A stretch of DNA of 21,872 nucleotides, taken from IMG/VR virus record IMGVR_UViG_3300042391_000580, one strand, 5' to 3'. The DNA comes from a virus. Its lineage: Duplodnaviria > Heunggongvirae > Uroviricota > Caudoviricetes. Shown here one piece after another: positions 3,382 through 21,359 of this stretch. Every line of letters starts with the position of its first letter. Within the stretch, counting starts at the first letter, position 1. A program made the translations under genes and the position numbers. The notes below the pieces were generated by a model that ran no database searches, was not told where the DNA came from, and saw only the letters and a list, made by a program, of their open reading frames with translations.

Positions 3382-4245
3382 TTATAAGTTAGGAAACATT
3401 CTTTCGAATCTGTTTGTCTCTTGGATCATTTTCATCTTTAGCTTATCCTGCCAGTTTCTCCCAAGACCTTCGAATTTAACCTGCGTCATTGCAAGCCCAA
3501 AGTATTCTCTTTCTTGTTGTTTTATATAAGTTAGTTTATTTATTAGATTAACATCATCGTCATTCATCCATAAACCCTCTAATATTTTTCTCTTTACAAA
3601 GTACATCAAGTACTCTTGTAAACTTACTACATCCGGTATATAAAGGTCCCCAGTTTCGTCTGATGGGATTGCGTTATACTGCATGTATATGTGGCCCTTC
3701 TTAAAGTTAGCTTGTATCTTATTGCCAAGGATGTTTATTTCATGCTCTGCAGAGTTTGTAAGCTGCTTTTGTAGGTTCTTGCAACCTGGACTGCAATATT
3801 CTTTTTTTATGCCCTTAGTAAGCTTTAAAATAATTGGGTTTGTATATCTAAAGTTTATAACAGTATTGTTATAGTACTTTTTCTCAATGATTTCTTTATA
3901 GCTTGTCTTTGTATGTGAATTAGATTGATTATCCCAAGTATAGGTATTCTCTATCTTTTGTGTGTAGTATTGTGAATCTTGTACGTCTTGTCTTGTACCT
4001 TTTTCAAACTCGTGGCTATCTTCTGTACATTTTACAGCTAAGTGTAAACTCCAAAAATCTTCTGGTAAATCAACTTGGCCATTCTCTACTTCTAATACTT
4101 TTTCTGTAAGTGTAGTAATGTTAGCACCAAATCTTTTTAGTTCACTTTTTATCCATAGATTAACTGACCTATAATCTATAAGTCCAGCTTCATCATATTG
4201 TCTTAGGTCTGAAAGTATTTCTGCTATTAGCTGCTTTCTAGTCAT
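3382..4245 (-). CDS. crAss-like tail tubular / ring protein (287 aa)
   Basis: ORF track; A-rich leader. Sits between the IHF-like gene and the muzzle gene, the canonical crAss-like order. Helical N-terminus (KQLIAEILSDLRQY) and C-terminal L.EYL..F.KRKILE.LW segment fit ring/adaptor proteins. Function is inferred. Confidence 0.7.
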   Translation of the reverse strand: MTRKQLIAEILSDLRQYDEAGLIDYRSVNLWIKSELKRFGANITTLTEKVLEVENGQVDLPEDFWSLHLAVKCTEDSHEFEKGTRQDVQDSQYYTQKIENTYTWDNQSNSHTKTSYKEIIEKKYYNNTVINFRYTNPIILKLTKGIKKEYCSPGCKNLQKQLTNSAEHEINILGNKIQANFKKGHIYMQYNAIPSDETGDLYIPDVVSLQEYLMYFVKRKILEGLWMNDDDVNLINKLTYIKQQEREYFGLAMTQVKFEGLGRNWQDKLKMKMIQETNRFERMFPNL

Positions 4246-4799: not shown

Positions 4800-5468
4800 C
4801 TATTTCTCGTTATTGTTTAGATTAGGGTTTTCGTCAGCCGGTACCTGTTTTTTCATAGCTACCTCTTTTACTGTCTCTGCTATTATCAGCTCTTCTAGTT
4901 TATCTGGTACTATAAATTCATAGTCCCATAGGCTTTTACATCCTGGTGTACTACAAGCAGAAACATTATCAATATCATCTAAATCTAATGTTAAAAGATA
5001 TAAGTTTACTATTTCTATCTCTGTGTCGATTAGGTATAAGTACCCATCCTTTACATAATAGTTTATATAGTCTGTTCCTGATACTCTATTTTTATCCCTT
5101 CTGTATTGTGAAGGTGTAGTTGGCTTAAACTCTTTTTCTTCATCTACAGTAGTCACTTCTTTTAGTGTGCTACCATATCTGCTATAAATAAGTTTAGGCA
5201 GTTTCTTTTTTGATTTCATTATAGAATTGCATTTTCTAAATTCTATAATATCACATTTTACAGCTTCAATTCTTTCTAATTCGAAACAATCTAGCGTTTT
5301 ATAAATGTTATCTTCTCTAAATAAGCTTCTATCATTAAGTTTTTGAGATATGTAAAACATAGATTTTTGTTTACCTACATGTAGGATATATCTACGTGAA
5401 ATCCTATCATCCTTAGATAATGCGTTTAGCCCATTTATTACTCTTGATGTAAATTCTGAATTAGTCAC
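4800..5468 (-). CDS. crAss-like tail ring protein (222 aa from a GTG start)
   Basis: The ORF track starts this gene at 5585, but the first 39 aa (MVFLFFLLGEKGLRPLFFF...) are translated terminator and promoter DNA. An in-frame GTG at 5468 with an A-rich leader gives (M)TNSEFTSRVINGLNALSKDDRISRRYIL... ending in P.DENPN. The ring assignment comes from gene order and recalled motifs. Confidence 0.7.
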   Translation of the reverse strand: MTNSEFTSRVINGLNALSKDDRISRRYILHVGKQKSMFYISQKLNDRSLFREDNIYKTLDCFELERIEAVKCDIIEFRKCNSIMKSKKKLPKLIYSRYGSTLKEVTTVDEEKEFKPTTPSQYRRDKNRVSGTDYINYYVKDGYLYLIDTEIEIVNLYLLTLDLDDIDNVSACSTPGCKSLWDYEFIVPDKLEELIIAETVKEVAMKKQVPADENPNLNNNEK

Positions 5469-5488
5469 TTTTGTACGGTTTAAGTTTA

Positions 5489-5520
5489 CAAAATTAGTAA
5501 AAATTTTTATGTTTACCAAA
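5489..5520 (-). promoter_or_regulatory. Bacteroidota housekeeping-sigma promoter (-33/-7)
   Basis: Minus strand reads TTTG (5520-5517), a 20 nt spacer, then TAATTTTG (5496-5489). This matches the established consensus TTTG-N19-21-TAnnTTTG. It lies just downstream of a terminator and 20 nt upstream of the GTG at 5468. Confidence 0.75.
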
Positions 5521-5526
5521 TTAGTT

Positions 5527-5555
5527 AAAAAAAAGAAAAGGGGCCGAAGCCCCTT
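5527..5555 (-). terminator. Intrinsic terminator with cUUCGg tetraloop
   Basis: Minus strand AAGGGGC-TTCG-GCCCCTT (perfect 7 bp stem, 5555-5538) followed by TTCTTTTTTTT; about 50 nt downstream of the 92 aa gene stop. Confidence 0.9.
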
Positions 5556-5567
5556 CTCACCCAACAG

Positions 5568-5594
5568 AAAAAAGAGGAAAACCAAAAACCTCTT
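5568..5594 (-). terminator. Weaker upstream hairpin, possible tandem terminator
   Basis: Minus strand AAGAGG-TTTTTGGTTTT-CCTCTT-TTTT: 6 bp stem, 11 nt loop, short U tract. Confidence 0.4.
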
Positions 5595-9852: not shown

Positions 9853-10239
9853 TTACTTTGCTGATGTTTTTTGAGCTGGTTCTACTGCCGGTTCAACAAC
9901 TGGTTCTACAACAACTTCTTCTGTTGCCCAAGGCAAAGTAGGTTGTTTAATTACTTTAGCATCAATCTGCTTTTGTATTTGATTGTTTACATGCTCTTCA
10001 TAAGAATCTACTACTACTGACTTAATCCAGCCTAGTATTAACTCTTCTGTTAATTCTGTGTAAGGTACAAAATTTTCTGCATCAATAGATGATTGCGGAA
10101 ACGGTGTAGCTCCTACGAACTTACCTTCGTTTCCTTCTGAATCTGTTCCAATTTTTTCCCAGTACGTTTGTACTACTGCGTTTTCGACTTCTGTTGTATC
10201 CAAAGTCTTCACTCCTGTGATTTTCCAAGTGTATTCCAT
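9853..10239 (-). CDS. Putative tail-fibre assembly protein (128 aa)
   Basis: Y.W.IT..., F.PY.ELTEE.ILGW.K and terminal LPW motifs typical of small proteins encoded directly after phage fibre genes; starts 8 nt after the 2230 aa gene stop. Confidence 0.55.
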   Translation of the reverse strand: MEYTWKITGVKTLDTTEVENAVVQTYWEKIGTDSEGNEGKFVGATPFPQSSIDAENFVPYTELTEELILGWIKSVVVDSYEEHVNNQIQKQIDAKVIKQPTLPWATEEVVVEPVVEPAVEPAQKTSAK

Positions 10240-10247
10240 TTTGTTTG

Positions 10248-13200
10248 TTATTTAGTTATTAATTTGTTTACTAATTCTTTTAATTCTTCTATTTGTTTTT
10301 GTTGTTCTTTTACTGCTTCGAATAATACAGCTACTGCGTTTTGGTATTTTACAGCTTTAGTGTTATCTTCATTTGTAACTACTAATTCTGGAAATTCTAC
10401 TTCTAGCTCTTGTGCTATAAATCCTATATTGTTTTTTTCTCCACTGTCAATTCTGTCGTATAAGACTCCTCTTGAATTATTAATTCTTTCTAGTACATTT
10501 TCAATTGGTCTTATATTTTCTTTTACCGATTGATCTGAATATGCTACAATGTCATAGTCTGCGTAAATTGAGACATTGCTGACTTGTTGTGTTACTCTTA
10601 GTGGATGAGATGCTGTATTGCTTGAGCCAATTGTTATTCTAGATGTAGAAGATACGTTATCTATATGAAAAGATAATGCTGTTCTAGGTCTAAATTGTAT
10701 AGCACCATTTGTGGTGTTATTATTTAGTATGTCCATATAACCACTAGAGAACATATTAATGCTACCACTGTATGCACCTGAAAACATATTTACTCCTGCT
10801 ATTGCTTGAGCTCCTGTATTAGTATTTGTTATAGTTATACCACTTTGATAAGTTGCATCATTAAAGCTTATACTAAGTCTGTTTAAAACACTTGTACTAG
10901 CTGGATCTATATAATATGCAGTATTGGTTCTTTCATAGAATATATTAAATCTGGCACCATTACCAAGAACATCTTGAGCTGTTCCTGCAGGGCTACCTGC
11001 GTAAAAAGAGGATGTTGTATAAACCGATCCATAATAAACTCCTACAGATGGATTACCATAACTGTTTGCAAACTGTAGACCTATTGTATCTGAGCCGGAT
11101 TGTACAACTACTTTACTTGCTAAATTTGCAGCAGTTGTTGAATCAGCTGGGTTTATATAGTACGCTGTATTATTTGAGTCGTAAAATATTGGTGCTCTAA
11201 GAGAATCATTAGATTGGAAAAATCCTGTTTTACTTTGATTTGAACCTCCAGAACCAATTGCAGTTTCCCATGCTTGAAATGAACCAGCTCCATTATAACT
11301 TCTAAACCATAAGTTGTTATCATAGTAACTCATTGCCATTTGAAATCCATGGTAGTTACTTTGATTACTGTGTCTTACATTTATTGAGTTATACCAAGTA
11401 CTACTAGGCCAGTTTGAACCTCCACCATCATTCTCATAAAAACCACTATTTCTCCAATCATTAGCATTATTATGAGAAGCTATTAAAGAATTAGTTGTCA
11501 TCCAATCCGGTTTACTTGATACATTAGTCCAAGCTACTGCACTTGCTGAACCAGCATTACCAGTAATGTTTCCAGATATAGTGTTAGCTACTGTTAATCC
11601 AACTAAGTTAGAGGTACTAGTAGGATCTATAAAATAACCAGTGTTATTTGAATCATAGAATATAGGAGCTCTCATATCATCTCTTGATCTAATAGAACCT
11701 GAGATAGCTGCTAAGAAACTACCATTTTCTGTAACAAGTAATCCATGTGTATTTAAGTTTCCTGCAACTCCTCCAGCATTTGGGTGAGACCAGGCCATAC
11801 CATAAAGGTTACCAATAGAAGTCCCATCTGCAGGAAGAATATAAGCTTCTCCCATTGAAAAGACTGCTTGGTATCTAATAGAACTATATAACCCAACTTG
11901 TCCATAACCAAAATTTGTGGCAACTATATTATCACTATGATATAGCTTAGATATATTTGAAGTTAAATTAGGGTCTATATAAAAGCCAGTATTATTTGAG
12001 TCATAGAATACAGGTGCTCTAAAATCACCACTTGTCTGATATGTACCAGTACCACCTGTTTTTGAAGTAAGTGAGTCAAAAGTGTGTGTATGAGAAACAG
12101 CAGCTGCGTAAGTTCCTACATTACTTGAATCTAATACAGTTCTCCATGCTTGCCATGTTCCACTATTTTTACCTCTTATTGCTATTTGGCCAGATCTAAA
12201 ATCTCCTGCTATTTGATGTTGCCAAGCTGAGCTATATGCTTGAGAGTATAATGCTCCGTCTGTAGCGTTTCCTGTAAAGTTTGGTACACCTGCTGTATAA
12301 TAAGTAATACCATTACTTTCTAAGGTATCCGCATTTATGGCTGAGTTAGAACCTGTGTTTCTAAAAGGCATCCCATCAATTTGATCAGCACTTGTAGCTG
12401 TGGCTGCATTACCTGATATGTTTCCTGTAATTGTATTTGTAACAGTTAGTCCAAGTAAATTGCTTGTTGAAGCAGGATCTAAGTAATAGGCTGTATTGTT
12501 TGTATCATAATATATTAAAGCATACAATGCACCTCCCCCATTTACATTGACCCCATATACAGCTGGATATTGCCAAGGATTCCAAGTGCCTGCATCTCCA
12601 TTTCTTGTTCTAAATGTTATTCCATAGCCTCCACTGCTATAAGGTGCATTGAATTGTAAACCATATCCTCCAGCCTCAATGTGTGCTAAAGGTCCACTAT
12701 ACGGAGCATTGTTTGCATATGTAAATCCAGATTTACTGCCTGCTATTGTATTTGCATCATATCCTGGATTAGTTACCCATCCATCATACCACCTGTTTGT
12801 AGCTGCTGTTGCATATCCTGCAGAAGCATGGTTACCCCATGAGTAAGCTGTATTCCAGTTAGTAGAATTATCTGTAAAAGGTAATACATAAAAGTTAGCA
12901 TTAGTAGCCCCTGTATAACCAAGATCAGCTAATGTCATCGTTCTAGTTGTAATGTTTGTTACACTACCTATTGCATCTGAAGTAAACACGTCAATTACTT
13001 GTGCTCCTGATGTATCAATATTTCTTGCTGTATAAGCAGGATGAGTATACACCGTATTTGTGTCTGTAGAGGATATTGTTACAACTCCTCCGGCCCCGTA
13101 GCTTAGTGATACATTTGTTCCTGCAACTAAATCTAATGAACCATTAGAGGTAATTGTAGTTCTTTGTACACCGTTAGTTTTTAAATTCCAGTATTGGTAG

Positions 13201-16200
13201 TTATCATAGGGGTGTGTATGTGAGGCTAGTGCAAAAGCTGAAGCATGGTTACCATCTAATAAGTCAGCGTCTAATCCACTTCCTGAACCATCGTTACCTG
13301 CATGCCAAACAATACTATTATCCCAATACAATACACCATTAGTTCTCATCTCTAAAAACTTACCGACTGTGCCACTAATATGAAATGCAATACCTGTTGT
13401 TGTTGTACTATAAGATTCAGTCCATATAGCTGCTGTTGTGTAGTCGTTGTCTGCTTGAGCTTTTCTAGACTTTATTGTATTATCAGCTATTAATAAGCTT
13501 AAACTACTTGTCCCGTTTGGGTTTGTGTAATAAGCAGTATTATCTGAATCGTAGAATATTGGAGCTCTAAAATCACCACTTGTCTGATATGTACTTGTAC
13601 CACTACTCTTAGAAGTCAAAGAATCAAAAGTGTGAGTATGAGAAGTTGTAGCCGCAAAAGATCCTATGTTAGCTGAGTGAATTACTTCTCTCCAACCACT
13701 GTATTGATCATTGTCCCATTGTGTCTTAAAATAAAAGTTTCCAGTGTGTGAACCCCAAAGTTGAAAACCAAAATTAGTACCTCGCAAACTTAACATTCCA
13801 CCATAATTGTAACCCCCTGGAGGATTAGACCAGCTTCCTGTGTCACCTATTTGATCAAATCTTACAGTTCCTGCTGTAGATTGTAAGGTTTGAAAATCTC
13901 CACTTGTAGAATAGCCTCTATATAATCTAGGATCTGTGTAAGTGGTGTAGTTATCTGCATGTAATAAATTATGTGTACCTGTATTGTTTGTAAAAGTACC
14001 ATTACCTCTAATGTAAGAGCTGTACCCTAAAGTATTAGAACCTATGTATACACCATAAGATGAGTTCCAACCTATACTATCTGCCATAACATCAGAAGTT
14101 ATCCATGTAGATGTTTGAGAACCAAATGATAAATCTCCTGCTAAGTTTAACGCATTTAAGTTAGAAGTACTAGCAGCATCAATATAATAACCAGTATTGT
14201 CTGTATCATAAAATATTGGAGCTCTAGAACTTCCACTAGCTGTTACTATACCTGTAAAAAAAGCTCCTTCACTAGCAAATGAAATTCTGTGATAAACAGA
14301 ACCATTATTTTTTATGACTAAATGATGTCCATAACCATTTCCATAAGAGTAACCTAATCCATACATATTAGCTAATGGCCAAGACTCTCCAATGGTCCAA
14401 ATAACTTTGTCATTAGTTCCATTTATATTATAGTCTCCCATAAGACCTCCACTATTGTTACTAACTAAGTAATCTGAATAAGTGAATCTTCCTGCTAAAT
14501 TACCTGTATTTAAATTAGAACCTCCATCTGGATTTAGATAATATGCTGTATTATTTGAATCATAAACTATAGGGGCTCTGAAATCTCCACTTGTTTGATA
14601 AGTTCCTGTACCCCCTGTTTTTGAAGTTAGAGAGTCAAATGTGTGTGTATGGTTTGCAGCTGCTGCATAGTTTCCTATATTAACATCTGTGATATATCTT
14701 TGCCATCCTTGCCATCCTGCAGCATAAGAGGCAGTTCTGTACCAAGAGCCTCCAGTAGAATCAAAGTACACTTGACTTGCAACGTGTCCGATTTTACTGT
14801 AGTATTCCAATACTGTGCCATAGTCATCTCCTAATCCTGTGCCATTAAAATAATTGTCCCACATCTTAACAGACATAGGTTCTGTATTTCTAGGGGCAGT
14901 TGCTGGATTAAAATTAGTAGAAGGAAATAGTAATTGATTTACTGTAAATAGGTTTGTATTACTAGTAGATGCAGGATTTACATAGTAGCCTGTGTTATCT
15001 GAATCATAGAATATAGGAGCCCTAAAATCACCTACTGCTTCTGAATATGTTCCATTTAATAAAACTCTTCCTAAAGTATTTCTAATAGAAAAGTCAGTGT
15101 CTAATGCAGAGCCAAATCCTTCCCAAGCCGTTTCTGCACCACTTGTGTTTCTATAAGAAATATAACCAACTTGGGCCGCCCCAGAACTGTCGGTGTCTTG
15201 TATTACTAAAGCTGGAGATATAGATTGTACTTGTATTGAAGTACCTAGTACGGTGTCGAAACGAGAAATAAAAGCTGGGTTTACATAATAGCCTGTATTG
15301 TCCGAATCATAAAATATAGGTGCTCTAAAATCACCAGAAGTTTGGTAAGTCCCTGTTCCTAATGTTTTATTTGTTAAGTTGTTAAAATCAACACTCCCTG
15401 CAGAAGTGGCTGATCCTGTTATACTTATTGGCCATGTCCCTGTTGCGTTAGTACCATCTGTGAATGAAATGTCTTTATATGAAGAGTATGCTGTAGCTGA
15501 ACCATAAGTTTGCTGCCATATTCTCATTCCAATTGCATCCTTTCTAAACATAACTAAATTGTCAAGCCCTCCAGAAGCATCTTGATAACTTCTCATATGT
15601 AAGAAGTCTGCATAAGGGCCTGAGTTATTATTATTCCAAGATGTAAAGCCAAACTTTAATCTATTTGCTGCTAACTCACTTGGAGAAATTGTTCTGTTAT
15701 CTTCTGATATTAGTGTTCCAGAATAACCCGATATATTTGTTACAGATGTTAGGTAAGTATTTGAATCTACAGTTCCATCTGCCTTTAAAAATTGTGAAGC
15801 TGTTCCTCCTGCCTTAACAAACTTATTAGCTGTTATATCATATAGATTTGATGAAGCTGCTGGATCTAGATAATAATTTGTATTATCTGAATCGTAAAAT
15901 ATAGGTGCTCTCATATCTGCAGTTGCAGTTAAACTTCCACCACTAGAGAGAGTCATTTTTTGACTTCCATTTATTGAAAATAGGTAGCCACTTAAGCTTT
16001 GTCCATATGTTGGATTAAACTCTAATTGATGAGCTGTATTTACTTTAAAAACAGACAACACAAGTCCGTCAGCTCTTTTGCTTAAAAATTGTGCGTTATT
16101 ATCTATTATTATGTTTCCTCCAGAAACAACTAATTTTGCATAGTTTGGGTCTGTAGTTGTGCCTATTAATACGTTTGTACCATTATCATATACTAAGCTA

Positions 16201-16940
16201 TTTCCTAATGTAGTTGATCCTGTAAATTTTGATAAATAGTTTGTTGTACCATTTGCATTAGCTGGAGTATACCCTAACCATCCTGCAATAGTTTTATTAA
16301 CCCACAGTGTACCATTAAATCCTAAGATGTGTCCATTTATAGGAGTTGTAGTTTTTAGATCTACATCATGTAATTCATCAAGTTCAAAACCATTTTGTAC
16401 TTTAACAAATATTTCACCACTATTTAAGTTTACTCTTGTAACAATACCAATGAAAACTAAATGGGTAGGTGCGTAAGGTTTATTAATTAATCCATAAATA
16501 AGATTACCTCCTGTCCCTAACCAAACAGGATCTCCTGCTGTAGCTCCAATTGTATTTAGTCCTGCAAGTAAACCTTCTGATACAACATTTGCAAAACCGT
16601 TTATTGCAACAGTTGCGTCAAGTAATCCCATTGTTTTACTTGACGTTGCCTCTGAAGTATTTGATGCCAAAGAAGCAAGCATATTTGTGCCATCTGCTCC
16701 GGATATATAGATAGCTTGACCTTTGTTTATAGCGACTGCTGCTTTTACTACATGCTGTAGTCTAGCTGCTGGTGCTCCTACATCTACGCCTAAATCAGAT
16801 AACATTTCTGCACCTGTTCTGTACTTAACTAGGCCGCCATCAGATACAAGAAACTTATCTGTATCTGTAGTGGCATTAGCTATACTTCCAATTGTGGTAG
16901 TGCCTTTTATATCAAGGTTTGAATATATTTTTTGCGACAT
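10248..16940 (-). CDS. Giant modular tail fibre with C-terminal intramolecular chaperone (peptidase S74-like) (2230 aa)
   Basis: C-terminal YSDQSVKENIRP...GFIAQE...VKY......EAVKEQQKQIEELK matches the S74 chaperone pattern (Ser2135/Lys2140). It also has the fibre motifs WHAGNDGSGSGLDADLLDG and NWNTAYSWGNHASAGY, six knob-like domains, four HTH (HxH) motifs and 11 linker repeats. Confidence 0.88.
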   Translation of the reverse strand: MSQKIYSNLDIKGTTTIGSIANATTDTDKFLVSDGGLVKYRTGAEMLSDLGVDVGAPAARLQHVVKAAVAINKGQAIYISGADGTNMLASLASNTSEATSSKTMGLLDATVAINGFANVVSEGLLAGLNTIGATAGDPVWLGTGGNLIYGLINKPYAPTHLVFIGIVTRVNLNSGEIFVKVQNGFELDELHDVDLKTTTPINGHILGFNGTLWVNKTIAGWLGYTPANANGTTNYLSKFTGSTTLGNSLVYDNGTNVLIGTTTDPNYAKLVVSGGNIIIDNNAQFLSKRADGLVLSVFKVNTAHQLEFNPTYGQSLSGYLFSINGSQKMTLSSGGSLTATADMRAPIFYDSDNTNYYLDPAASSNLYDITANKFVKAGGTASQFLKADGTVDSNTYLTSVTNISGYSGTLISEDNRTISPSELAANRLKFGFTSWNNNNSGPYADFLHMRSYQDASGGLDNLVMFRKDAIGMRIWQQTYGSATAYSSYKDISFTDGTNATGTWPISITGSATSAGSVDFNNLTNKTLGTGTYQTSGDFRAPIFYDSDNTGYYVNPAFISRFDTVLGTSIQVQSISPALVIQDTDSSGAAQVGYISYRNTSGAETAWEGFGSALDTDFSIRNTLGRVLLNGTYSEAVGDFRAPIFYDSDNTGYYVNPASTSNTNLFTVNQLLFPSTNFNPATAPRNTEPMSVKMWDNYFNGTGLGDDYGTVLEYYSKIGHVASQVYFDSTGGSWYRTASYAAGWQGWQRYITDVNIGNYAAAANHTHTFDSLTSKTGGTGTYQTSGDFRAPIVYDSNNTAYYLNPDGGSNLNTGNLAGRFTYSDYLVSNNSGGLMGDYNINGTNDKVIWTIGESWPLANMYGLGYSYGNGYGHHLVIKNNGSVYHRISFASEGAFFTGIVTASGSSRAPIFYDTDNTGYYIDAASTSNLNALNLAGDLSFGSQTSTWITSDVMADSIGWNSSYGVYIGSNTLGYSSYIRGNGTFTNNTGTHNLLHADNYTTYTDPRLYRGYSTSGDFQTLQSTAGTVRFDQIGDTGSWSNPPGGYNYGGMLSLRGTNFGFQLWGSHTGNFYFKTQWDNDQYSGWREVIHSANIGSFAATTSHTHTFDSLTSKSSGTSTYQTSGDFRAPIFYDSDNTAYYTNPNGTSSLSLLIADNTIKSRKAQADNDYTTAAIWTESYSTTTTGIAFHISGTVGKFLEMRTNGVLYWDNSIVWHAGNDGSGSGLDADLLDGNHASAFALASHTHPYDNYQYWNLKTNGVQRTTITSNGSLDLVAGTNVSLSYGAGGVVTISSTDTNTVYTHPAYTARNIDTSGAQVIDVFTSDAIGSVTNITTRTMTLADLGYTGATNANFYVLPFTDNSTNWNTAYSWGNHASAGYATAATNRWYDGWVTNPGYDANTIAGSKSGFTYANNAPYSGPLAHIEAGGYGLQFNAPYSSGGYGITFRTRNGDAGTWNPWQYPAVYGVNVNGGGALYALIYYDTNNTAYYLDPASTSNLLGLTVTNTITGNISGNAATATSADQIDGMPFRNTGSNSAINADTLESNGITYYTAGVPNFTGNATDGALYSQAYSSAWQHQIAGDFRSGQIAIRGKNSGTWQAWRTVLDSSNVGTYAAAVSHTHTFDSLTSKTGGTGTYQTSGDFRAPVFYDSNNTGFYIDPNLTSNISKLYHSDNIVATNFGYGQVGLYSSIRYQAVFSMGEAYILPADGTSIGNLYGMAWSHPNAGGVAGNLNTHGLLVTENGSFLAAISGSIRSRDDMRAPIFYDSNNTGYFIDPTSTSNLVGLTVANTISGNITGNAGSASAVAWTNVSSKPDWMTTNSLIASHNNANDWRNSGFYENDGGGSNWPSSTWYNSINVRHSNQSNYHGFQMAMSYYDNNLWFRSYNGAGSFQAWETAIGSGGSNQSKTGFFQSNDSLRAPIFYDSNNTAYYINPADSTTAANLASKVVVQSGSDTIGLQFANSYGNPSVGVYYGSVYTTSSFYAGSPAGTAQDVLGNGARFNIFYERTNTAYYIDPASTSVLNRLSISFNDATYQSGITITNTNTGAQAIAGVNMFSGAYSGSINMFSSGYMDILNNNTTNGAIQFRPRTALSFHIDNVSSTSRITIGSSNTASHPLRVTQQVSNVSIYADYDIVAYSDQSVKENIRPIENVLERINNSRGVLYDRIDSGEKNNIGFIAQELEVEFPELVVTNEDNTKAVKYQNAVAVLFEAVKEQQKQIEELKELVNKLITK
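10932..15911 (-). repeat. 11 dispersed RAPIFYD.(D/N)NT.YY.(D/N)P linker repeats in the 2230 aa fibre
   Basis: RAP[IV][FV]YD cores at 15891-15911, 15306-15326, 15003-15023, 14559-14579, 14205-14225, 13548-13568, 12000-12020, 11652-11672 and 11178-11198; degenerate copies at ~12504-12524 (YALIYYD) and 10932-10952 (RFNIFYE). Confidence 0.95.
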
Positions 16941-16963: not shown

Positions 16964-18625
16964 TTAGTCAATTTTTTGAACTAACGCTCTTACTGGATTT
17001 GTTGGTGCAGTTATAAATGTTACTGTAACTGCGAATGGAGTGGTCATTGATCTAGCTATATCTGCATAAATTACTTCTCCATTAATAGTGTCAAATAGTT
17101 GTACTATTACATCTGATGTACCTAATCCATGTGCTACTGTTTGTGCACCAACTGTTGCTGTTAGTGTGACAGCGTATGAATCTGCTGCTGCTTGGTTTGC
17201 AATGTAAGTTGCAAGAGTTGCTGGAGTTACAGCTCTAACTGTATCTGTACCTGCGTTTACCTCTGCTTGTGTTGCTAACTCGATTACTCCGACTGCTGTT
17301 TCTGATGCATTATTTGCTGCAATTGTGAAAGCTTTTGCTGTACCTGATGAAGTATCTGTTATAGTTATACCATTTCCTTGTGTAAGTGCTATACTTGTTA
17401 CAGTGGCATCTCCTGAAATAGGTATGTTATAAAAAGTTGTTCCATCATTTGTGAAAGTCCATCTATCTGTAGACTCATTCCACACTAAGGATACATTTGT
17501 TAACGTGCCTCTTTCTATTTCAATACCTCCATTTTCAGTTGGTGCTGATCCGGTGTAGTTGCTGTTTAATGTGATTATATTATCAGCAAGGTTTATAGTC
17601 TCTGTATTTACTGTAGTAGTAGTTCCACTTACTGTTAAATCTCCAGATATGATTACATTATTTGAGAATGTTTTATCTCCTGCAAAAGTTTGCCCATTTG
17701 TTGTAACAACCCCTGATGCTGTAGCAGATGCTGATGGTATTGCTGCGTATGGTACTGCTGACATACCAACTCCTGTTAAAGACCCTGTAGGCCCTGCTGT
17801 AGTTCCCCCGGTCCATGCGAATGCTGTAGGGTACCAGTTAGTATCTAAATTTGCTGGTAATGTAAGAGTTAAGTTACTCTTTGTTACAAGGTGTCCTTGT
17901 GCGTCATATGTAACATAAGGTACAATAAAGGTTCCACCATAAGCTAGGGTTCTTGTTACGCCTGTATCACCAAAGTTACTTGCTGTTACAGCATTAGAGT
18001 GGTTAAAAGTTGTACCAGATAATGATAAACCAGTACCTGCTGTATAAGTTGTATTTGTGTCTGTAGATGCTATTGTTATAGTATCTGTTGTATCGTTTGT
18101 TGTTATAGTTACGTTTGATCCTGCTACTAATGTTAATGTGTCATTATTAGAGTCCGCTACTACTGTATTTTGTCCTGCTACTGCAAAGTTTTTGAATATG
18201 TTTTGTGAAGATCCAAGATCTGTATTTGTTACTGTAACTGCTCCTGTAGCACTGTTTACTGATATTCCAGTACCTGCTATTATTGATGTGACGGATGCTG
18301 TACCTCCTGTGATATAGTCATAAAGTAAGTCTGAAGTTACAAGCCCTGTTCCTCCGTTAGTAACTGTTGATGCAATATCTAAAGCTAACGATACTGCTCC
18401 AGTTGTTCCACTTGTTACTGTTAATTGTGAGGTTGTTGATGCAACACTTGTAATATCACCTACTGGTGTCCAGTTTGCTCCATCATGTATGTAAAGTTTT
18501 TTATCACCTACTGAAGAGTTATAATAAATTTGCCCCTCTACGCCTGTTGGGGGTGTTCCTAGTGGGTGTATTACAGCATTCTGTAATTGATTTTTGCTTA
18601 AGTCAATGTGAGCTAAAAATTTCAT
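16964..18625 (-). CDS. Tail fibre-like structural protein (553 aa)
   Basis: Thr/Gly-rich; AGTGI/AGTGL stalk repeats; GDLTVSGTTTTVNTETINLADNIITLN...GIEIERG...WNE..D.W domain; ASE...GVIELATQAEVNAGTD...AVTPATL repeat reminiscent of T4 gp34/gp12-type fibre repeats; C-terminal H.LG domain. Confidence 0.75.
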   Translation of the reverse strand: MKFLAHIDLSKNQLQNAVIHPLGTPPTGVEGQIYYNSSVGDKKLYIHDGANWTPVGDITSVASTTSQLTVTSGTTGAVSLALDIASTVTNGGTGLVTSDLLYDYITGGTASVTSIIAGTGISVNSATGAVTVTNTDLGSSQNIFKNFAVAGQNTVVADSNNDTLTLVAGSNVTITTNDTTDTITIASTDTNTTYTAGTGLSLSGTTFNHSNAVTASNFGDTGVTRTLAYGGTFIVPYVTYDAQGHLVTKSNLTLTLPANLDTNWYPTAFAWTGGTTAGPTGSLTGVGMSAVPYAAIPSASATASGVVTTNGQTFAGDKTFSNNVIISGDLTVSGTTTTVNTETINLADNIITLNSNYTGSAPTENGGIEIERGTLTNVSLVWNESTDRWTFTNDGTTFYNIPISGDATVTSIALTQGNGITITDTSSGTAKAFTIAANNASETAVGVIELATQAEVNAGTDTVRAVTPATLATYIANQAAADSYAVTLTATVGAQTVAHGLGTSDVIVQLFDTINGEVIYADIARSMTTPFAVTVTFITAPTNPVRALVQKID

Positions 18626-19919: not shown

Positions 19920-21359
19920 TTATACTACTGCTGTTGCTGGCATTGTAAACCACTCTCCTATATTTGTTCTTAGGTAAATTGTTGGTCCACCGGAAATATT
20001 AGGAAATAATATTTTACATCCTATAGGCCAATAAGCTGTAGATAAACTTGTTAGTGTAGCTAAAGTTGGTGTTGTACTGCTATAATCTACAATGGTATCT
20101 CTTGCTCTATCTTCAGTTAACCTAAACAAAGTTGTGCTGTTTGTACCAGAGTCTTCTTTTAACAGTAAATAATATGAATTAGATTTTAAGTCCACACTAC
20201 TGTTACCATTAACATTCTCATTTAATATTGAAAAGTTAACATCAAAGTTACTTGTATTTTTTAAATATATAGCTCTACCTATTCTAGGTGTCTCTGTTAA
20301 CTTTATTCCTTTACCTCCAGCTGAAGCAAAAATTCTTACAAACCCAACTCCTGAAAAGTTAGTTGGTGTATCATTAGCTGTCACTTGTGTAGAAGACCCA
20401 CTAAAACCCATAAGTTTTGAAGTCCAAGTACTCAAACCAGTTTTTATATAAGCTGTTGCTCCATTTAATATGTTAGGACAATATACTGTAAGTCCTATAA
20501 TATTAAAGTAGTCAGGGTATGCGTTATTTAACAGTGTATCGTTTAAAGTTGTAGTTGTAGTATTTACAGCTACAAGAGGGTATGTTGTACCATTACCATG
20601 AGCTTTTCCACCAATTAAGACAGGAGATCTTTGTAATGCTTCAACAGCCCAGAAATTTGTCCCTAAAGAAGTAAATTTATAATACTGGTTAAACTCTACT
20701 TGTAATTGAGAGGTGCTTGTGTTGTATGTAGTTGCAAGAGTAGCACCTAATCCATGAGCATATATATAAGAGCTGTTACCATTACCACTAGATACTATGA
20801 TTTCTTTACCTACTACAGTTGTATTTGGTAAAATAAACATGCTCCCTGAGCCTGCACCTAGTTGTAAAATGTTTATGTCATTGCTTAACACAGCTGGTGA
20901 TCCGTTAACTCCACCAAAAATTAAACCTTGAGTCTTAACTGGTGCTGTACCTGCTGGTCCTTGAGGTCCTTCTGGTCCTTGTGCTCCTACTGCTCCTGCT
21001 TGCCCTTGTGCTCCTTGTGCTGCTAATAAAGCCCAGTGTACTGTATCGGTTTCTGGGTCGGTATTGCCTGTTCCTGTTACTGGAGAAATACAAAACCAAG
21101 ATGCTCCATTAAATGCAACTGCATCATCTGCAGCATATGCTGTATCTGCATCCCATAAACCTTGCCATTCTAAACCTGCTGGTCCTACTGGCCCTAAAGC
21201 TCCTTGAGGCCCTGCTGGTCCTTGTATACCTTGTGGTCCTGCTGGTCCTTGGTTAGATCCTAGATTATCTACTACTTTTGATAAAGCATCTACTTCTTCT
21301 GGTAATCTCCACCAATTTACTTTTGGCTCTAATGGGAATTTATTTTTTTGACTTTTCAT
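19920..21359 (-). CDS. Collagen-like repeat fibre protein (479 aa)
   Basis: Two runs of 8 Gly-X-Y triplets flank a W.G.W.....Y...D.V.FNG.SW module, followed by two diverged tandem copies of a two-module beta-rich unit. Confidence 0.8.
   Translation of the reverse strand: MKSQKNKFPLEPKVNWWRLPEEVDALSKVVDNLGSNQGPAGPQGIQGPAGPQGALGPVGPAGLEWQGLWDADTAYAADDAVAFNGASWFCISPVTGTGNTDPETDTVHWALLAAQGAQGQAGAVGAQGPEGPQGPAGTAPVKTQGLIFGGVNGSPAVLSNDINILQLGAGSGSMFILPNTTVVGKEIIVSSGNGNSSYIYAHGLGATLATTYNTSTSQLQVEFNQYYKFTSLGTNFWAVEALQRSPVLIGGKAHGNGTTYPLVAVNTTTTTLNDTLLNNAYPDYFNIIGLTVYCPNILNGATAYIKTGLSTWTSKLMGFSGSSTQVTANDTPTNFSGVGFVRIFASAGGKGIKLTETPRIGRAIYLKNTSNFDVNFSILNENVNGNSSVDLKSNSYYLLLKEDSGTNSTTLFRLTEDRARDTIVDYSSTTPTLATLTSLSTAYWPIGCKILFPNISGGPTIYLRTNIGEWFTMPATAVV
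20943..21248 (-). repeat. Two collagen (Gly-X-Y)8 tracts
   Basis: GPAGPQGIQGPAGPQGALGPVGPAG (~21174-21248) and GAQGQAGAVGAQGPEGPQGPAGTA (20943-21014). Confidence 0.95.

What the first reader, a model, noticed from the sequence alone, without database searches (positions are those of the whole stretch)
10932..15911. Giant fibre built as a higher-order array: alternating long/short linkers with six different knob-like domains
Seen: 11 linker copies split the 2230 aa protein into segments of 195, 101, 148, 118, 219, 348, 168, 116, 158 and 82 aa. Even-numbered linkers carry a long prefix (GT.TYQTSGDF, usually preceded by HTHTFDSL; degenerate KTGFFQSNDSL in no. 10) and always follow a knob-like domain, mostly ending in a W..W motif. 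Odd-numbered linkers are short. Odd-to-odd distances are 296, 266, 567, 284 and 240 aa, a ~280 aa super-repeat with one double-length step that holds a stalk and an extra knob. The six knob-like domains end in AYSSYKD, WQGWQRY, YSGWREV, WNPWQYP, WQAWRTV and FQAWETA and share little sequence. Inference: a beads-on-a-string multi-receptor adhesin whose conserved linkers allow modules to be added, dropped or swapped, which would be a recombinase-free route to host-range variation. From memory, similar linkers occur in proteins auto-annotated as shufflon PilV-like; this is unverified.
Basis: partly seen in the sequence, partly recalled or inferred. Interest (0 to 1): 0.78.

Follow-up and report, generated by a model that had tools for sequence, protein, structure and literature searches.

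The report
Modular phage tail fibre with junction nodes
This 2230-residue gene encodes the long tail fibre of a freshwater crAss-like phage, built from bead-like modules separated by eleven copies of one near-invariant 21-residue junction; close relatives differ by whole modules joined at these junctions, a new example of the known mosaic evolution of phage fibres.

Summary

The gene (window 10248-16940, minus strand) is a tail fibre with a C-terminal S74 chaperone, in a crAss-like phage from lake metagenomes.

- **Fold.** Two knobs (S5, S7) resemble the R2-pyocin head / T4 gp34 knob. A 241-residue piece is predicted to trimerise, with its tightest contacts in the junction.
- **Module turnover.** Six syntenic relatives carry fibres of 1556-2230 aa. 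The closest lacks 485 aa and 158 aa, and both crossovers map inside junction codons. It also carries a conversion-like patch in a junction.
- **Recombination substrate.** The gene's only exact direct repeats of 18 nt or more (31, 21, 19 nt) lie in junctions. The genome has RecA but no invertase, integrase or reverse transcriptase.
- **Spread.** The junction has no Pfam or NCBIfam model. It occurs up to 22 times per protein in about 2900 representative clusters, in myoviruses too, and in some Pseudomonas proteins annotated as shufflon PilV.

Multi-receptor binding is untested. The distal tip is conserved among the relatives while the middle varies. Recombination at conserved fibre motifs is already known from T-even phages. 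I rate this a new variant of a known kind.

The parts
10248..16940 (-). Tail-fibre gene, 2230 aa (P0001)
   Evidence: ORF list and translation. PHROG tail-fibre families and Pfam Peptidase_S74 hit the C-terminus. The identical protein is on record from 3 contigs.
15912..16940 (-). N-terminal anchor domain, aa 1-343 (presumed attachment to the tail)
   Evidence: It is conserved (at least 50% identity) in 29 other fibres, where it is followed by 25 different first modules. It is 65-84% identical in most of the syntenic relatives. The attachment role is inferred.
15849..15911 (-). Junction 1 (aa 344-364), short type
   Evidence: Junction HMM and motif scan. The similarity block shared with P0009/L009 ends here.
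15327..15848 (-). S1 knob-like module (aa 365-538), ends AYSSYKD
   Evidence: Fold not tested.
15264..15326 (-). Junction 2 (aa 539-559), long type (YQTSGDF prefix upstream)
   Evidence: In P0002 the prefix carries a burst of synonymous changes and a 35-nt exact match to the prefix of junction 8.
15024..15263 (-). S2 short module (aa 560-639)
   Evidence: P0039 shares aa 539-660, the module with both of its junctions, at 72% identity.
14961..15023 (-). Junction 3 (aa 640-660), short type; crossover site 1
   Evidence: The P0002 junction maps to the GDFR codons shared by junctions 3 and 6.
14580..14960 (-). S3 knob module (aa 661-787), ends WQGWQRY then HTHTFDSL
   Evidence: Absent from P0002.
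14517..14579 (-). Junction 4 (aa 788-808), long type with HxH
14226..14516 (-). S4 short module (aa 809-905)
   Evidence: Found in 8 other fibres, each with different neighbours. P0004 shares aa 785-938 at 90% identity.
14163..14225 (-). Junction 5 (aa 906-926), short type
13569..14162 (-). S5 knob module (aa 927-1124), ends YSGWREV then HTHTFDSL
   Evidence: AF2 model. An exhaustive structure search puts the R2 pyocin fibre head, residues 444-538, first at Z 10.4; the top 11 hits are all phage fibre knobs and the first unrelated hit is at Z 5.6.
13506..13568 (-). Junction 6 (aa 1125-1145), long type with HxH; partner of crossover 1
   Evidence: Its prefix shares a 31-nt exact in-frame repeat with the prefix of junction 8.
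12525..13505 (-). S6 double-length segment (aa 1146-1472): stalk with a further HxH (HTHPY) plus an extra knob ending WNPWQYP
   Evidence: aa 1202-1354 are 90% identical in P0008 and P0009. Atlas leads to gp34/gp37/pyocin-knob clusters are weak, scores 0.84-0.86.
12462..12524 (-). Junction 7 (aa 1473-1493), short and most diverged copy (YALIYYDTNNT)
12021..12461 (-). S7 knob module (aa 1494-1640), ends WQAWRTV then HTHTFDSL
   Evidence: AF2 model, pLDDT 85-90 in the core. The top 11 aligned PDB chains are all phage fibre, spike or receptor-binding knobs, at Z 5.2-6.7.
11958..12020 (-). Junction 8 (aa 1641-1661), long type with HxH
   Evidence: The tightest predicted inter-chain contacts of the homotrimer fall at aa 1639-1672.
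11673..11957 (-). S8 short module (aa 1662-1756)
   Evidence: The most widespread module type: 87 other fibres, nearly all with different neighbours (ascertainment is biased by the query).
11610..11672 (-). Junction 9 (aa 1757-1777), short type; crossover site 2
   Evidence: The P0002 junction maps to the FYDSNN codons shared by junctions 9 and 10.
11199..11609 (-). S9 knob module (aa 1778-1914), ends FQAWETA
   Evidence: Absent from P0002. Its core is 72-76% identical in P0032, P0036, P0104, P0119 and P0120.
11139..11198 (-). Junction 10 (aa 1915-1934), degenerate long type
   Evidence: The conserved C-terminal block shared with P0003, P0006, P0008 and P0009 starts here, at aa 1905-1907.
10953..11138 (-). 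S10 short module (aa 1935-1996)
10890..10952 (-). Junction 11 (aa 1997-2017), diverged copy (RFNIFYERTNT)
10539..10889 (-). Distal tip (aa 2018-2134), presumed primary receptor-binding end
   Evidence: Lies just before the S74 domain. With the chaperone it forms a C-terminal block that is 73-89% identical among the syntenic relatives and 82-88% (aa 2004-2123) against P0002. The role is inferred by analogy with other S74 fibres.
10251..10538 (-). Peptidase_S74 intramolecular chaperone (aa 2135-2230), presumed to be cut off after folding near the A-Y-S-D motif at aa 2133-2136
   Evidence: Pfam PF13884 scores 43.4 bits against a cut-off of 22. PDB 6f45 (long tail fibre distal subunit) matches at E 2e-4. 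Motif position. Cleavage is inferred.
9853..10239 (-). DUF7936 gene directly downstream (128 aa), a possible fibre accessory
   Evidence: Pfam PF25590 scores 49.1 bits. The same family follows the fibre gene in L011, L015, L016, the P0003 contig and the T4-like contig L014. Function unknown.

Best explanation
The gene encodes a homotrimeric long tail fibre of a freshwater crAss-like phage. It has an N-terminal anchor, then an array of interchangeable modules, then a distal tip and a C-terminal S74 chaperone that is presumably cut off after folding. Five modules plus one extra are knobs of the pyocin-head/gp34 type; four are short modules. Every module is bounded by the same 21-residue junction (consensus R-A-P-I-F-Y-D-S-N-N-T-x-Y-Y-x-D-P-A-S-T-S). 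The junction peptide probably forms a tightly packed node on the three-fold axis, which would return the three chains to the same geometry after each module. Any module flanked by two nodes would then be structurally compatible with any other. In one knob family the node is preceded by a shaft-like tail (W..W, then an HxH probable metal site, then YQTSGDF), as in the R2 pyocin head-to-shaft transition; this produces the 'long' junctions. Because all nodes lie in the same frame and orientation and hold the gene's only short exact DNA repeats, general homologous or short-homology recombination between nodes deletes, duplicates or swaps whole modules in frame. That recombination could use the phage's own RecA, within one genome or between co-infecting phages. 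Shown here: the anatomy, the conservation of the node, the fold resemblance of two knobs, module differences among relatives, and two crossovers plus one conversion-like patch inside nodes. Inferred: the trimer node structure (prediction only), metal binding, the recombination pathway, and any effect on host range. The knobs may bind surface glycans along the side of the fibre, but that is unproven.
For: Identity and setting:
- S74 domain and tail-fibre PHROGs at the C-terminus.
- CrAss_Ring_1 and CrAss_Ring_2 genes lie in the window.
- The stretch is held by lake-water metagenome runs.

Anatomy and conservation:
- Anatomy as reported.
- Over 1206 junction instances, Y6 is 99%, D7 100% and T11 97% conserved. 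Yet copies within this gene are only 71% identical in DNA, so selection acts on the peptide.

Structure:
- Homotrimer of aa 1560-1800: ipSAE 0.83 against a best control of 0.00, partner pLDDT at least 74, runs agreeing in at least 79% of contacts. The mark was reached by 21 of 30 solved one-chain pairs and 0 of 23 single chains, and the counts hold only roughly for three copies. The tightest contacts are at aa 1639-1672, which is junction 8.
- S5 knob against the R2 pyocin head, residues 444-538: Z 10.4, rmsd 3.5, 89 aligned. The top 11 hits are all phage fibre knobs, including T4 gp34, and the first unrelated hit is at Z 5.6.
- S7 knob gives the same set of hits at Z 5.2-6.7.
- The R2 pyocin head is followed by a shaft with aromatic residues and an H-x-H metal site (PMC6363177), the same order as here.

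Module turnover:
- P0002, from a syntenic contig 89-96% identical in DNA, lacks S3+S4+S5 (485 aa) and S9 (158 aa). The crossovers lie in the GDFR codons and the FYDSNN codons of junctions.
- A 35-nt patch in junction 2 of P0002 matches junction 8 of P0001 exactly, but is only 74% identical to the orthologous copy.
- Six syntenic relatives have fibres of 1556-2230 aa. 22 of 57 block ends lie in junctions against 9 expected.
- Module types recur with different neighbours; there are 693 module clusters in 254 proteins.
- The only exact direct repeats of 18 nt or more in the gene (31, 21 and 19 nt) are in-frame junction DNA.

Recombination machinery:
- RecA is present. No reverse transcriptase, RecT, ERF, tyrosine or serine recombinase was found.
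- No meaningful inverted repeats lie in or near the gene.
Against: - The structures are predictions. The monomer models have mean pLDDT of only 66-72, and only two of the six knobs were folded. S1, S3, S9, the S6 knob and all short modules are untested.
- 35 of 57 block ends among relatives lie outside recognised junctions, so other joints exist. Against more distant homologues, a first count showed no enrichment of block ends near junctions: 14 of 125 in junctions against an expected share of 12.5%.
- The direction of the P0001/P0002 differences (deletion or insertion) is unknown.
- Exact repeats of 19-31 nt are short for RecA-type recombination (own knowledge). The joints may instead arise by illegitimate recombination, with selection keeping only in-frame products.
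- The junction also occurs in pilin-like proteins not known to be trimers, so a trimer-node role may not be general.
- Receptor binding by the knobs has no direct support. The distal tip, the usual binding end of such fibres, is conserved among the relatives.
Confidence: 0.72

Rival explanations
1. The knobs and short modules are purely structural beads that set the length, stiffness and hinge points of the fibre, as the globular domains along T4 gp34/gp37 are thought to do. Only the distal tip binds the receptor. Module gain and loss is then nearly neutral or tunes reach, not specificity.
For: The C-terminal block (S10, tip and chaperone) is 73-89% identical in all six syntenic relatives while the middle is replaced, which fits one shared receptor-binding end. 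The matched folds (pyocin head, gp34 domains) have no proven receptor role; in T-even phages only the distal fibre or its adhesin binds (PMC6363177 introduction).
Against: Knob cores are highly diverse: 693 module clusters in 254 proteins, with no detectable similarity between knob cores in one protein. That is more variety than a spacer role seems to need. In R pyocins, subtype-specific changes also cluster in a cleft of the head domain (PMC6363177 abstract).
Confidence: 0.35
2. The junction is conserved for a function of its own, such as a metal- or sugar-binding site or a docking site for accessory proteins like the DUF7936 product or side fibres. On this reading the recombination at junctions is only a by-product of that conservation.
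For: Conservation is extreme, with Asp7 at 100% and Tyr6 at 99% over 1206 copies, more than packing alone usually demands. The motif also occurs in pilus-tip adhesin-like proteins and in 228-aa mini-proteins of Patescibacteria MAGs. A DUF7936 gene always follows the fibre gene, in crAss-like and T4-like contexts alike.
Against: In the trimer prediction the junction is buried at the axis rather than exposed. No binding partner was tested. This rival does not conflict with modules being exchanged at junctions.
Confidence: 0.25
3. The array is a programmed variation system, either a shufflon-like inversion system or a diversity-generating retroelement acting on the fibre.
For: The junction motif is shared with some proteins annotated as shufflon PilV.
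Against: All junctions are direct and in one frame. There are no meaningful inverted repeats and no alternative coding segments on the other strand. The 128-kb genome, about 90% complete, has no tyrosine or serine recombinase and no reverse transcriptase. P0001 has no prepilin or Shufflon_N domain.
Confidence: 0.02
4. The giant gene, or the shorter relatives, are assembly artefacts made by joining reads across repeats.
For: Repeats can mislead assemblers. Logan contigs (k = 31) break at the 31-nt junction repeat.
Against: Junction copies share at most 31 exact bases and about 71% identity, too little for mis-joins at the k = 141 shown in the contig names. P0001 and P0002 are each on record from 3 contigs. 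The crossovers in P0002 lie in only about 11-12 shared bases. Reading frames are intact throughout.
Confidence: 0.02

Closest known systems
[quoted passage not shown] 1996, 1998, as cited in PMC3157838)
   Same: Conserved short motifs flank variable segments in a fibre or adhesin. [quoted passage not shown] No dedicated site-specific recombinase is involved.
   Different: The motif here is different (R-A-P-I-F-Y-D-S-N-N-T-x-Y-Y-x-D-P, not His boxes or glycine-rich motifs). It is repeated 11 times here and up to 22 times in relatives. It bounds whole folded modules rather than loops. It occurs in crAss-like podoviruses as well as myoviruses. No crosses have been done.
R2-type pyocin tail fibre (PDB 6CL6, 6CT8, 6CU2; PMC6363177), head and shaft domains
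   Same: A trimeric fibre in which a small beta-sheet head (G443-M525) is followed by an intertwined shaft rich in aromatic residues, with an H-x-H metal site. The S5 model aligns to residues 444-538 at Z 10.4 and the S7 model at Z 5.9.
   Different: Sequence identity is only 13-16%. The pyocin has one such unit before a lectin-like foot; here the unit is repeated five or six times and separated by junction nodes. The end is an S74 chaperone, not a separate assembly chaperone.
T4 proximal long tail fibre gp34 (PDB 4UXG, 5NXH)
   Same: A very long trimeric fibre made of successive globular domains joined by short shaft pieces. gp34 residues 1123-1250 align with the S5 and S7 knob models at Z 6.2 and 5.3.
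   Different: The structural scores are weak and there is no sequence similarity. T4 splits its fibre over four genes and has no repeated junction motif.
Fibres and spikes with a C-terminal intramolecular chaperone (Peptidase_S74; for example the long tail fibre distal subunit in PDB 6F45)
   Same: C-terminal S74 domain above the Pfam cut-off, with a direct PDB sequence match.
   Different: The array in front of the chaperone is not found in the solved members.
Shufflon PilV pilus-tip adhesins (Pfam Shufflon_N, PF04917)
   Same: Some Pseudomonas megaplasmid proteins with a prepilin N-terminus and a Shufflon_N match carry one or two copies of the same junction motif just before their C-terminal part. 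These include RefSeq WP_162948995.1, annotated as shufflon PilV. Both kinds of protein are adhesin-like with exchangeable distal parts.
   Different: P0001 has no prepilin signal and no Shufflon_N domain. There is no Rci-type recombinase and no inverted crossover sites. An E. coli IncK2/Z PilV lacks the motif. Variation here is by direct-repeat recombination, not inversion.
Protein-level mosaicism of phage receptor-binding proteins (Smug et al. 2023, PMC10684548; Alteromonas phage fibres shared across families, PMC10579305)
   Same: Fragments of fibres are shuffled among unrelated phages; both papers were seen in abstract only. Here the same module types occur in crAss-like and T4-like phages.
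   Different: Going by their abstracts, those surveys are general and do not describe this junction or arrays of this size.

Membership tests
Phage tail fibre with C-terminal intramolecular chaperone (Peptidase_S74, PF13884) | C-terminal S74 chaperone domain above the Pfam gathering score | tested here: met
   43.4 bits against a cut-off of 22, at aa 2135-2187. PHROG tail-fibre families hit the same region. PDB 6f45 matches at E 2e-4.
Phage tail fibre with C-terminal intramolecular chaperone (Peptidase_S74, PF13884) | Autocleavage at a conserved Ser that releases the chaperone | not testable with these tools
   An A-Y-S-D-Q-S-V-K-E-N motif is present at aa 2133. Cleavage needs protein work.
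Phage tail fibre with C-terminal intramolecular chaperone (Peptidase_S74, PF13884) | Homotrimer | tested here: met
   Prediction only. ipSAE 0.83 against a best control of 0.00; partner pLDDT at least 74; runs agree in at least 79% of contacts; the mark was reached by 21 of 30 solved one-chain pairs and 0 of 23 single chains, with counts only rough for three copies.
Pyocin-head / gp34-type fibre knob fold | Small beta-sheet knob that superposes on solved fibre knobs clearly better than on unrelated folds | tested here: met
   S5 model: R2 pyocin residues 444-538 at Z 10.4, rmsd 3.5, 89 aligned. The 11 best of 48,161 chains are all phage fibre, spike or receptor-binding domains, and the next hit is at Z 5.6.
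Pyocin-head / gp34-type fibre knob fold | The same fold in the other knobs (S1, S3, S6 knob, S7, S9) | tested here: inconclusive
   S7 gives the same set of hits but only at Z 5.2-6.7. S1, S3, S9 and the S6 knob were not folded.
H-x-H metal site of trimeric fibres (T4 gp37 needle, R2 pyocin shaft) | H-x-H motif at the trimer interface that coordinates a divalent cation | not testable with these tools
   HTH is present before junctions 4, 6 and 8 and as HTHPY in S6. H1617 and H1619 lie in the predicted interface. Metal binding needs experiment. The precedent is in PMC6363177.
Shufflon PilV adhesin (PF04917; NCBI name 'shufflon system ... PilV') | Prepilin-type N-terminal cleavage/methylation motif | tested here: not met
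   No NCBIfam or Pfam hit on P0001 at E up to 1. The positive controls L026 ORFs do hit N_methyl / IV_pilin_GFxxxE.
Shufflon PilV adhesin (PF04917; NCBI name 'shufflon system ... PilV') | Shufflon_N constant region | tested here: not met
   No PF04917 hit on P0001 or on ten sub-segments at E up to 10.
Shufflon PilV adhesin (PF04917; NCBI name 'shufflon system ... PilV') | Rci-type tyrosine recombinase and inverted crossover repeats flanking invertible segments | tested here: not met
   No Phage_integrase or Resolvase in the 128-kb genome. There are no meaningful inverted repeats, and all junctions are direct and in one frame. The genome is about 90% complete, so absence is not absolute.
Diversity-generating retroelement target | Reverse transcriptase with a template/variable repeat pair | tested here: not met
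   No RVT_1 in the genome. Junction copies differ at all base types and mostly at synonymous sites.
crAss-like phage (Crassvirales-type tail) | Tail ring proteins 1 and 2 | tested here: met
   CrAss_Ring_1 at 62.6 bits (window 3382-4245) and CrAss_Ring_2 at 95.6 bits (window 4800-5585), both above their cut-offs.

The most novel reading that the evidence does not exclude
The 21-residue junction is a portable, self-contained 'connector' used across very different surface filaments: fibres of crAss-like podoviruses and T4-like myoviruses, pilus-tip PilV-like adhesins of Pseudomonas megaplasmids, and mini-fibres in Patescibacteria MAGs. It would define a shared pool of plug-in adhesin modules, each knob being a separate lateral glycan-binding site. 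One fibre would then read several host surface structures, and its repertoire would be re-dealt by junction-to-junction recombination.
Probability: 0.25. Interest if true: 0.75.

Novelty: new variant of a known kind. Interest (0 to 1): 0.55.

Why it matters
Tail fibres decide which bacteria a phage can attack, and how they diversify is central to phage ecology and to engineering phages. This case offers three things.

- **Clean evidence of module exchange.** In an uncultured freshwater crAss-like lineage, whole folded modules are exchanged at one fixed junction, and the crossovers are mapped to a dozen bases.
- **An uncatalogued motif.** The junction matched no Pfam or NCBIfam model here (PHROGs matched only the fibre's C-terminus). 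Yet it marks about 2900 representative protein clusters, occurs up to 22 times per protein, and is nearly absent from deposited phage genomes (6 of 50,697 records). A profile for it would let annotators split thousands of giant 'hypothetical proteins' into modules.
- **A possible engineering rule.** If the junction really resets the trimer geometry, it gives a natural rule for where fibre modules can be cut and joined.

The general principle, recombination at conserved fibre motifs, is already known from T-even phages, so the advance is in kind and scale and not in concept.

Tried and rejected
- **megablast of the window against deposited phages:** no match.
- **Self-BLASTP of the whole protein:** gave nothing because inner hits are culled. 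Replaced by segment-against-segment BLASTP.
- **First count of block ends near junctions** (119 homologues, at least 70% identity): no enrichment, 14 of 125 in junctions against an expected share of 12.5%. Many of those ends are domain limits of the N-terminal anchor or the edges of module cores. The test on the six syntenic relatives was more telling.
- **Foldseek on the S7+S8 monomer:** no hit at E of 0.001 or better. Only the VIA second look gave usable alignments.
- **Atlas feature search of S6:** only leads below 0.9.
- **Pfam on ten sub-segments at E up to 10:** no Shufflon_N or any fibre family.
- **tblastn of junction 8 + S8 against PLSDB plasmids:** no match. The PilV link appeared only through a DNA pattern scan of genomes.
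- **Reads:** only Logan contigs (k = 31) were available. They break at the 31-nt junction repeat. The 11 'joints' have short sides (20-71 nt) at 88% likeness, so they probably come from other fibres in the same lakes. Several join two junctions (for example 14198 to 15307 and 10925 to 14177), but I do not count them as evidence of variants of this phage.
- **Recombination genes:** searches of the genome for RecT and ERF were negative.
- **Rejected readings:** a shufflon, a DGR and an assembly artefact (see rivals).

Full report
**1. Observation**

The window's largest ORF (10248-16940, minus strand) encodes 2230 aa. A motif scan finds 11 copies of a conserved stretch at aa 347, 542, 643, 791, 909, 1128, 1476, 1644, 1760, 1918 and 2000.

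Copies 2, 4, 6 and 8 carry the YQTSGDF prefix. Copies 4, 6 and 8 also carry HTHTFDSL, and copy 10 has a degenerate prefix. Perfect alternation of 5 long and 6 short copies has a chance of 1 in 462.

BLASTP between segments at first suggested that the knobs are paralogous over their whole length (S3-S7 40% identity, E 2e-32). After removing the junctions and the last 60 aa, nothing remains except 24 aa shared by S7 and S9. The knobs do share a C-terminal frame: W..W, HxH, YQTSGDF.

**2. What the gene is**

- The C-terminus is a Peptidase_S74 intramolecular chaperone (43.4 bits against a cut-off of 22). It also hits tail-fibre PHROGs and the solved long tail fibre distal subunit 6f45.
- The window also holds CrAss_Ring_1 and CrAss_Ring_2 genes and a DUF7936 gene directly after the fibre.
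- The window lies in a 128-kb IMG/VR virus record that is about 90% complete.
- Sequencing runs that hold the gene are lake-water and freshwater metagenomes.

**3. Fold and assembly**

An AF2 model of aa 1473-1760 (mean pLDDT 72, knob core 85-90) gave no Foldseek hit at E of 0.001 or better. On realignment, the 11 best chains were all phage fibre, spike or receptor-binding knobs: phi812, AS12 gp42, Pa193 fibre, R2 and R1 pyocin fibres, phage K gp144, Mu fibre, T4 gp34 and 80alpha. Their scores were only Z 5.2-6.7.

A model of the S5 knob (aa 906-1145, mean pLDDT 66, core 71-89) was compared with all 48,161 PDB representatives. The R2 pyocin fibre, residues 444-538, came first (Z 10.4, rmsd 3.5, 89 aligned). 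Ten further phage fibre knobs followed, down to T4 gp34 at Z 6.2, and the first unrelated chain was at Z 5.6.

In the R2 pyocin, this head (G443-M525) is followed by an intertwined shaft that starts at W529 and holds an H-x-H metal site (PMC6363177). The order here is the same: knob, W..W, HTH. So the 'long linkers' are the shaft-like tail of one knob family plus the junction.

Three copies of aa 1560-1800 are predicted to form a trimer:
- ipSAE is 0.83 against a best control of 0.00, partner pLDDT is at least 74, and the runs agree in at least 79% of contacts.
- The mark was reached by 21 of 30 solved one-chain pairs and 0 of 23 single chains. The counts hold only roughly for three copies.
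- The least uncertain contacts fall at aa 1639-1672, which is junction 8. They include same-residue contacts of F1640 and F1645 around the axis.

This supports trimerisation but does not prove it.

**4. The junction**

Over 1206 ungapped instances in 280 of 336 collected proteins, the consensus is R-A-P-I-F-Y-D-S-N-N-T-x-Y-Y-x-D-P-A-S-T-S. Y6 is 99% conserved, D7 100%, T11 97%, Y14 95% and S21 95%. Within this gene the copies are on average 64% identical in protein but only 71% in DNA. Selection therefore acts on the peptide; the copies are not being homogenised at the DNA level.

The only exact direct repeats of 18 nt or more in the 6.7-kb gene are all in frame and all in junction DNA:
- 31 nt, in the prefixes of junctions 6 and 8;
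- 21 nt, in junctions 3 and 9;
- 19 nt, in junctions 2 and 8.

**5. Relatives**

The family is large. More than 1400 proteins of 1227-3610 aa matched in the 90%-clustered collection. A 288-aa super-repeat unit finds 2907 representatives at 50% identity (1819 at E of 1e-10 or better), with up to 21 matched stretches per protein. All matches that carry a source's name are 'hypothetical protein'. No Pfam or NCBIfam model covers the junction. Only 6 of 50,697 deposited phage records match junction 8 plus S8, one of them a 3161-aa protein of a Kyanoviridae cyanophage.

Five further contigs keep the same flanking genes but carry fibres of 1592, 1556, 1673, 1798 and 1921 aa.

The closest relative is P0002 on L011, 89-96% identical in DNA. 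It equals P0001 minus S3+S4+S5 (485 aa) and minus S9 (158 aa). At the nucleotide level:
- The first crossover lies within the GDFR codons shared by junctions 3 and 6.
- The second lies within the FYDSNN codons shared by junctions 9 and 10.
- The two positions differ within the junction, which argues for homology-guided rather than site-specific joining.

Identity between the two genes is patchy. Modules are 98-100% identical in DNA, but junction 2 and long junction 8 drop to 75-84% (third-position identity 0.48-0.68). The junction-2 prefix of P0002 has a 35-nt exact match to the junction-8 prefix of P0001, yet is only 74% identical to the orthologous copy. That is a conversion-like patch.

Among the six relatives, 22 of 57 distinct block ends lie within a junction plus or minus 12 aa, against 9 expected (binomial p about 3e-5; the ends are not independent). 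The junction is therefore a preferred joint but not the only one; aa 1202-1354 inside S6, for example, is another exchanged block.

I cut 254 proteins at junction hits and clustered the pieces at 50% identity or more and 80% coverage or more, which gave 693 module clusters:
- The S8 type recurs in 87 other proteins with almost always different neighbours. This count is biased by the query.
- The S4 type recurs in 8 proteins, each in a different context.
- The N-terminal anchor is followed by 25 different first modules in 29 proteins.
- Several highly similar blocks span exactly one module with both of its junctions: P0039 aa 539-660, P0004 aa 785-938 and P0014 aa 1632-1783. P0005 aa 876-1147 spans S5 and its two junctions but starts about 30 aa upstream of junction 5.

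The family also sits in myoviruses, next to sheath and tube genes (L013) and in a 203-kb T4-like contig (L014).

The strict long/short alternation is not general. Only 40 of 1384 junctions have the long prefix.

**6. Mechanism**

All junctions are direct and in one frame, so recombination between them gives in-frame deletions, duplications or swaps. The genome encodes RecA (350 bits) but no RecT, ERF, tyrosine or serine recombinase and no reverse transcriptase. The gene has no meaningful inverted repeats.

The 'recombinase-free' idea therefore holds for site-specific systems only. Whether RecA, replication slippage or illegitimate joining followed by selection makes the joints cannot be told from the sequence.

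**7. The PilV remark**

A degenerate DNA pattern for the junction found only 16 places in one genome each of 185,579 species. These included:
- Pseudomonas megaplasmid ORFs with a prepilin N-terminus, a Shufflon_N match and one or two junction copies;
- small proteins in Patescibacteria MAGs, one of 228 aa with a signal anchor, two junctions and an S74 domain.

RefSeq WP_162948995.1 of Pseudomonas sp. Leaf58, annotated as shufflon PilV, carries the motif just before its C-terminal part. An E. coli IncK2/Z PilV does not.

**8. Function**

No test of receptor binding was possible.
- For lateral binding: the knob cores are extremely diverse.
- Against it: the C-terminal block, which includes the tip, is 73-89% identical among the relatives while the middle is replaced. 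In T-even phages only the distal part binds (PMC6363177).

I keep multi-receptor binding as a minority reading.

**9. Novelty**

Exchange at conserved fibre motifs is established for T-even phages (Tetart et al. 1996, 1998, as cited in PMC3157838), and protein-level mosaicism of phage receptor-binding proteins is well documented (PMC10684548, seen in abstract only).

What is new here:
- an uncatalogued, near-invariant junction peptide of wide distribution;
- arrays of up to 22 modules;
- nucleotide-resolved joints in an uncultured freshwater crAss-like lineage;
- the overlap with pilus-tip adhesins.

I rate it a new variant of a known kind, with moderate interest.

Noticed in passing
window 9853-10239 (-); also L011 14788-15162, L015 11031-11417, L016 9306-9665 and 10658-11050, L014 17940-18729: A small DUF7936 (PF25590) gene always sits directly downstream of this type of fibre gene, sometimes in two copies, in crAss-like and T4-like phage contigs alike. 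It may be a fibre accessory or assembly protein that travels with the fibre.
   Followed up: partly
L026 3732-7958 (Pseudomonas sp. PLMAX plasmid pPLMAXa) and L034 5455-6399 (Pseudomonas sp. Leaf58 pBASL58): Megaplasmid PilV-like type IV pilin genes carry one or two copies of the phage-fibre junction motif just before their C-terminal part. In pPLMAXa three related ORFs lie in tandem on one strand, the third lacking the pilin N-terminus.
   Followed up: partly
L025 2601-3287 (-) (Patescibacteria MAG); L017 574-1353 (+) (Candidatus Niyogibacteria MAG): These are mini-proteins. One, of 228 aa, has a signal anchor, two junction copies and an S74 chaperone domain. The other, of 259 aa, has a junction followed by a Shufflon_N-like domain (52.8 bits). 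They may be cell-surface filaments or binned phage DNA.
   Followed up: partly
G000:C1:79215-79985 (+), outside the window: The phage genome encodes a full-length RecA homologue (350 bits), but no integrase, resolvase, RecT, ERF or reverse transcriptase was found.
   Followed up: partly
window 19920-21359 (-): This 479-aa protein has a collagen-like triplet stretch and a weak CBM_5_12 match, and strong PHROG tail-fibre hits. It is a second, conserved fibre-like gene upstream of the giant fibre.
   Followed up: no
window 16964-18625 (-): A 553-aa protein directly upstream of the fibre is conserved at 551-553 aa in all syntenic relatives and has weak hits to tail collar / proximal fibre PHROGs. 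It may be the adaptor that carries the fibre.
   Followed up: no
   Followed up: partly
L012 1-5242 (Synechococcus phage DSL-LC03, OR003938.1): A 3161-aa hypothetical protein of a cultured Kyanoviridae cyanophage has at least four junction copies in the part examined. This may be the only cultured system in which the junction could be studied.
   Followed up: partly
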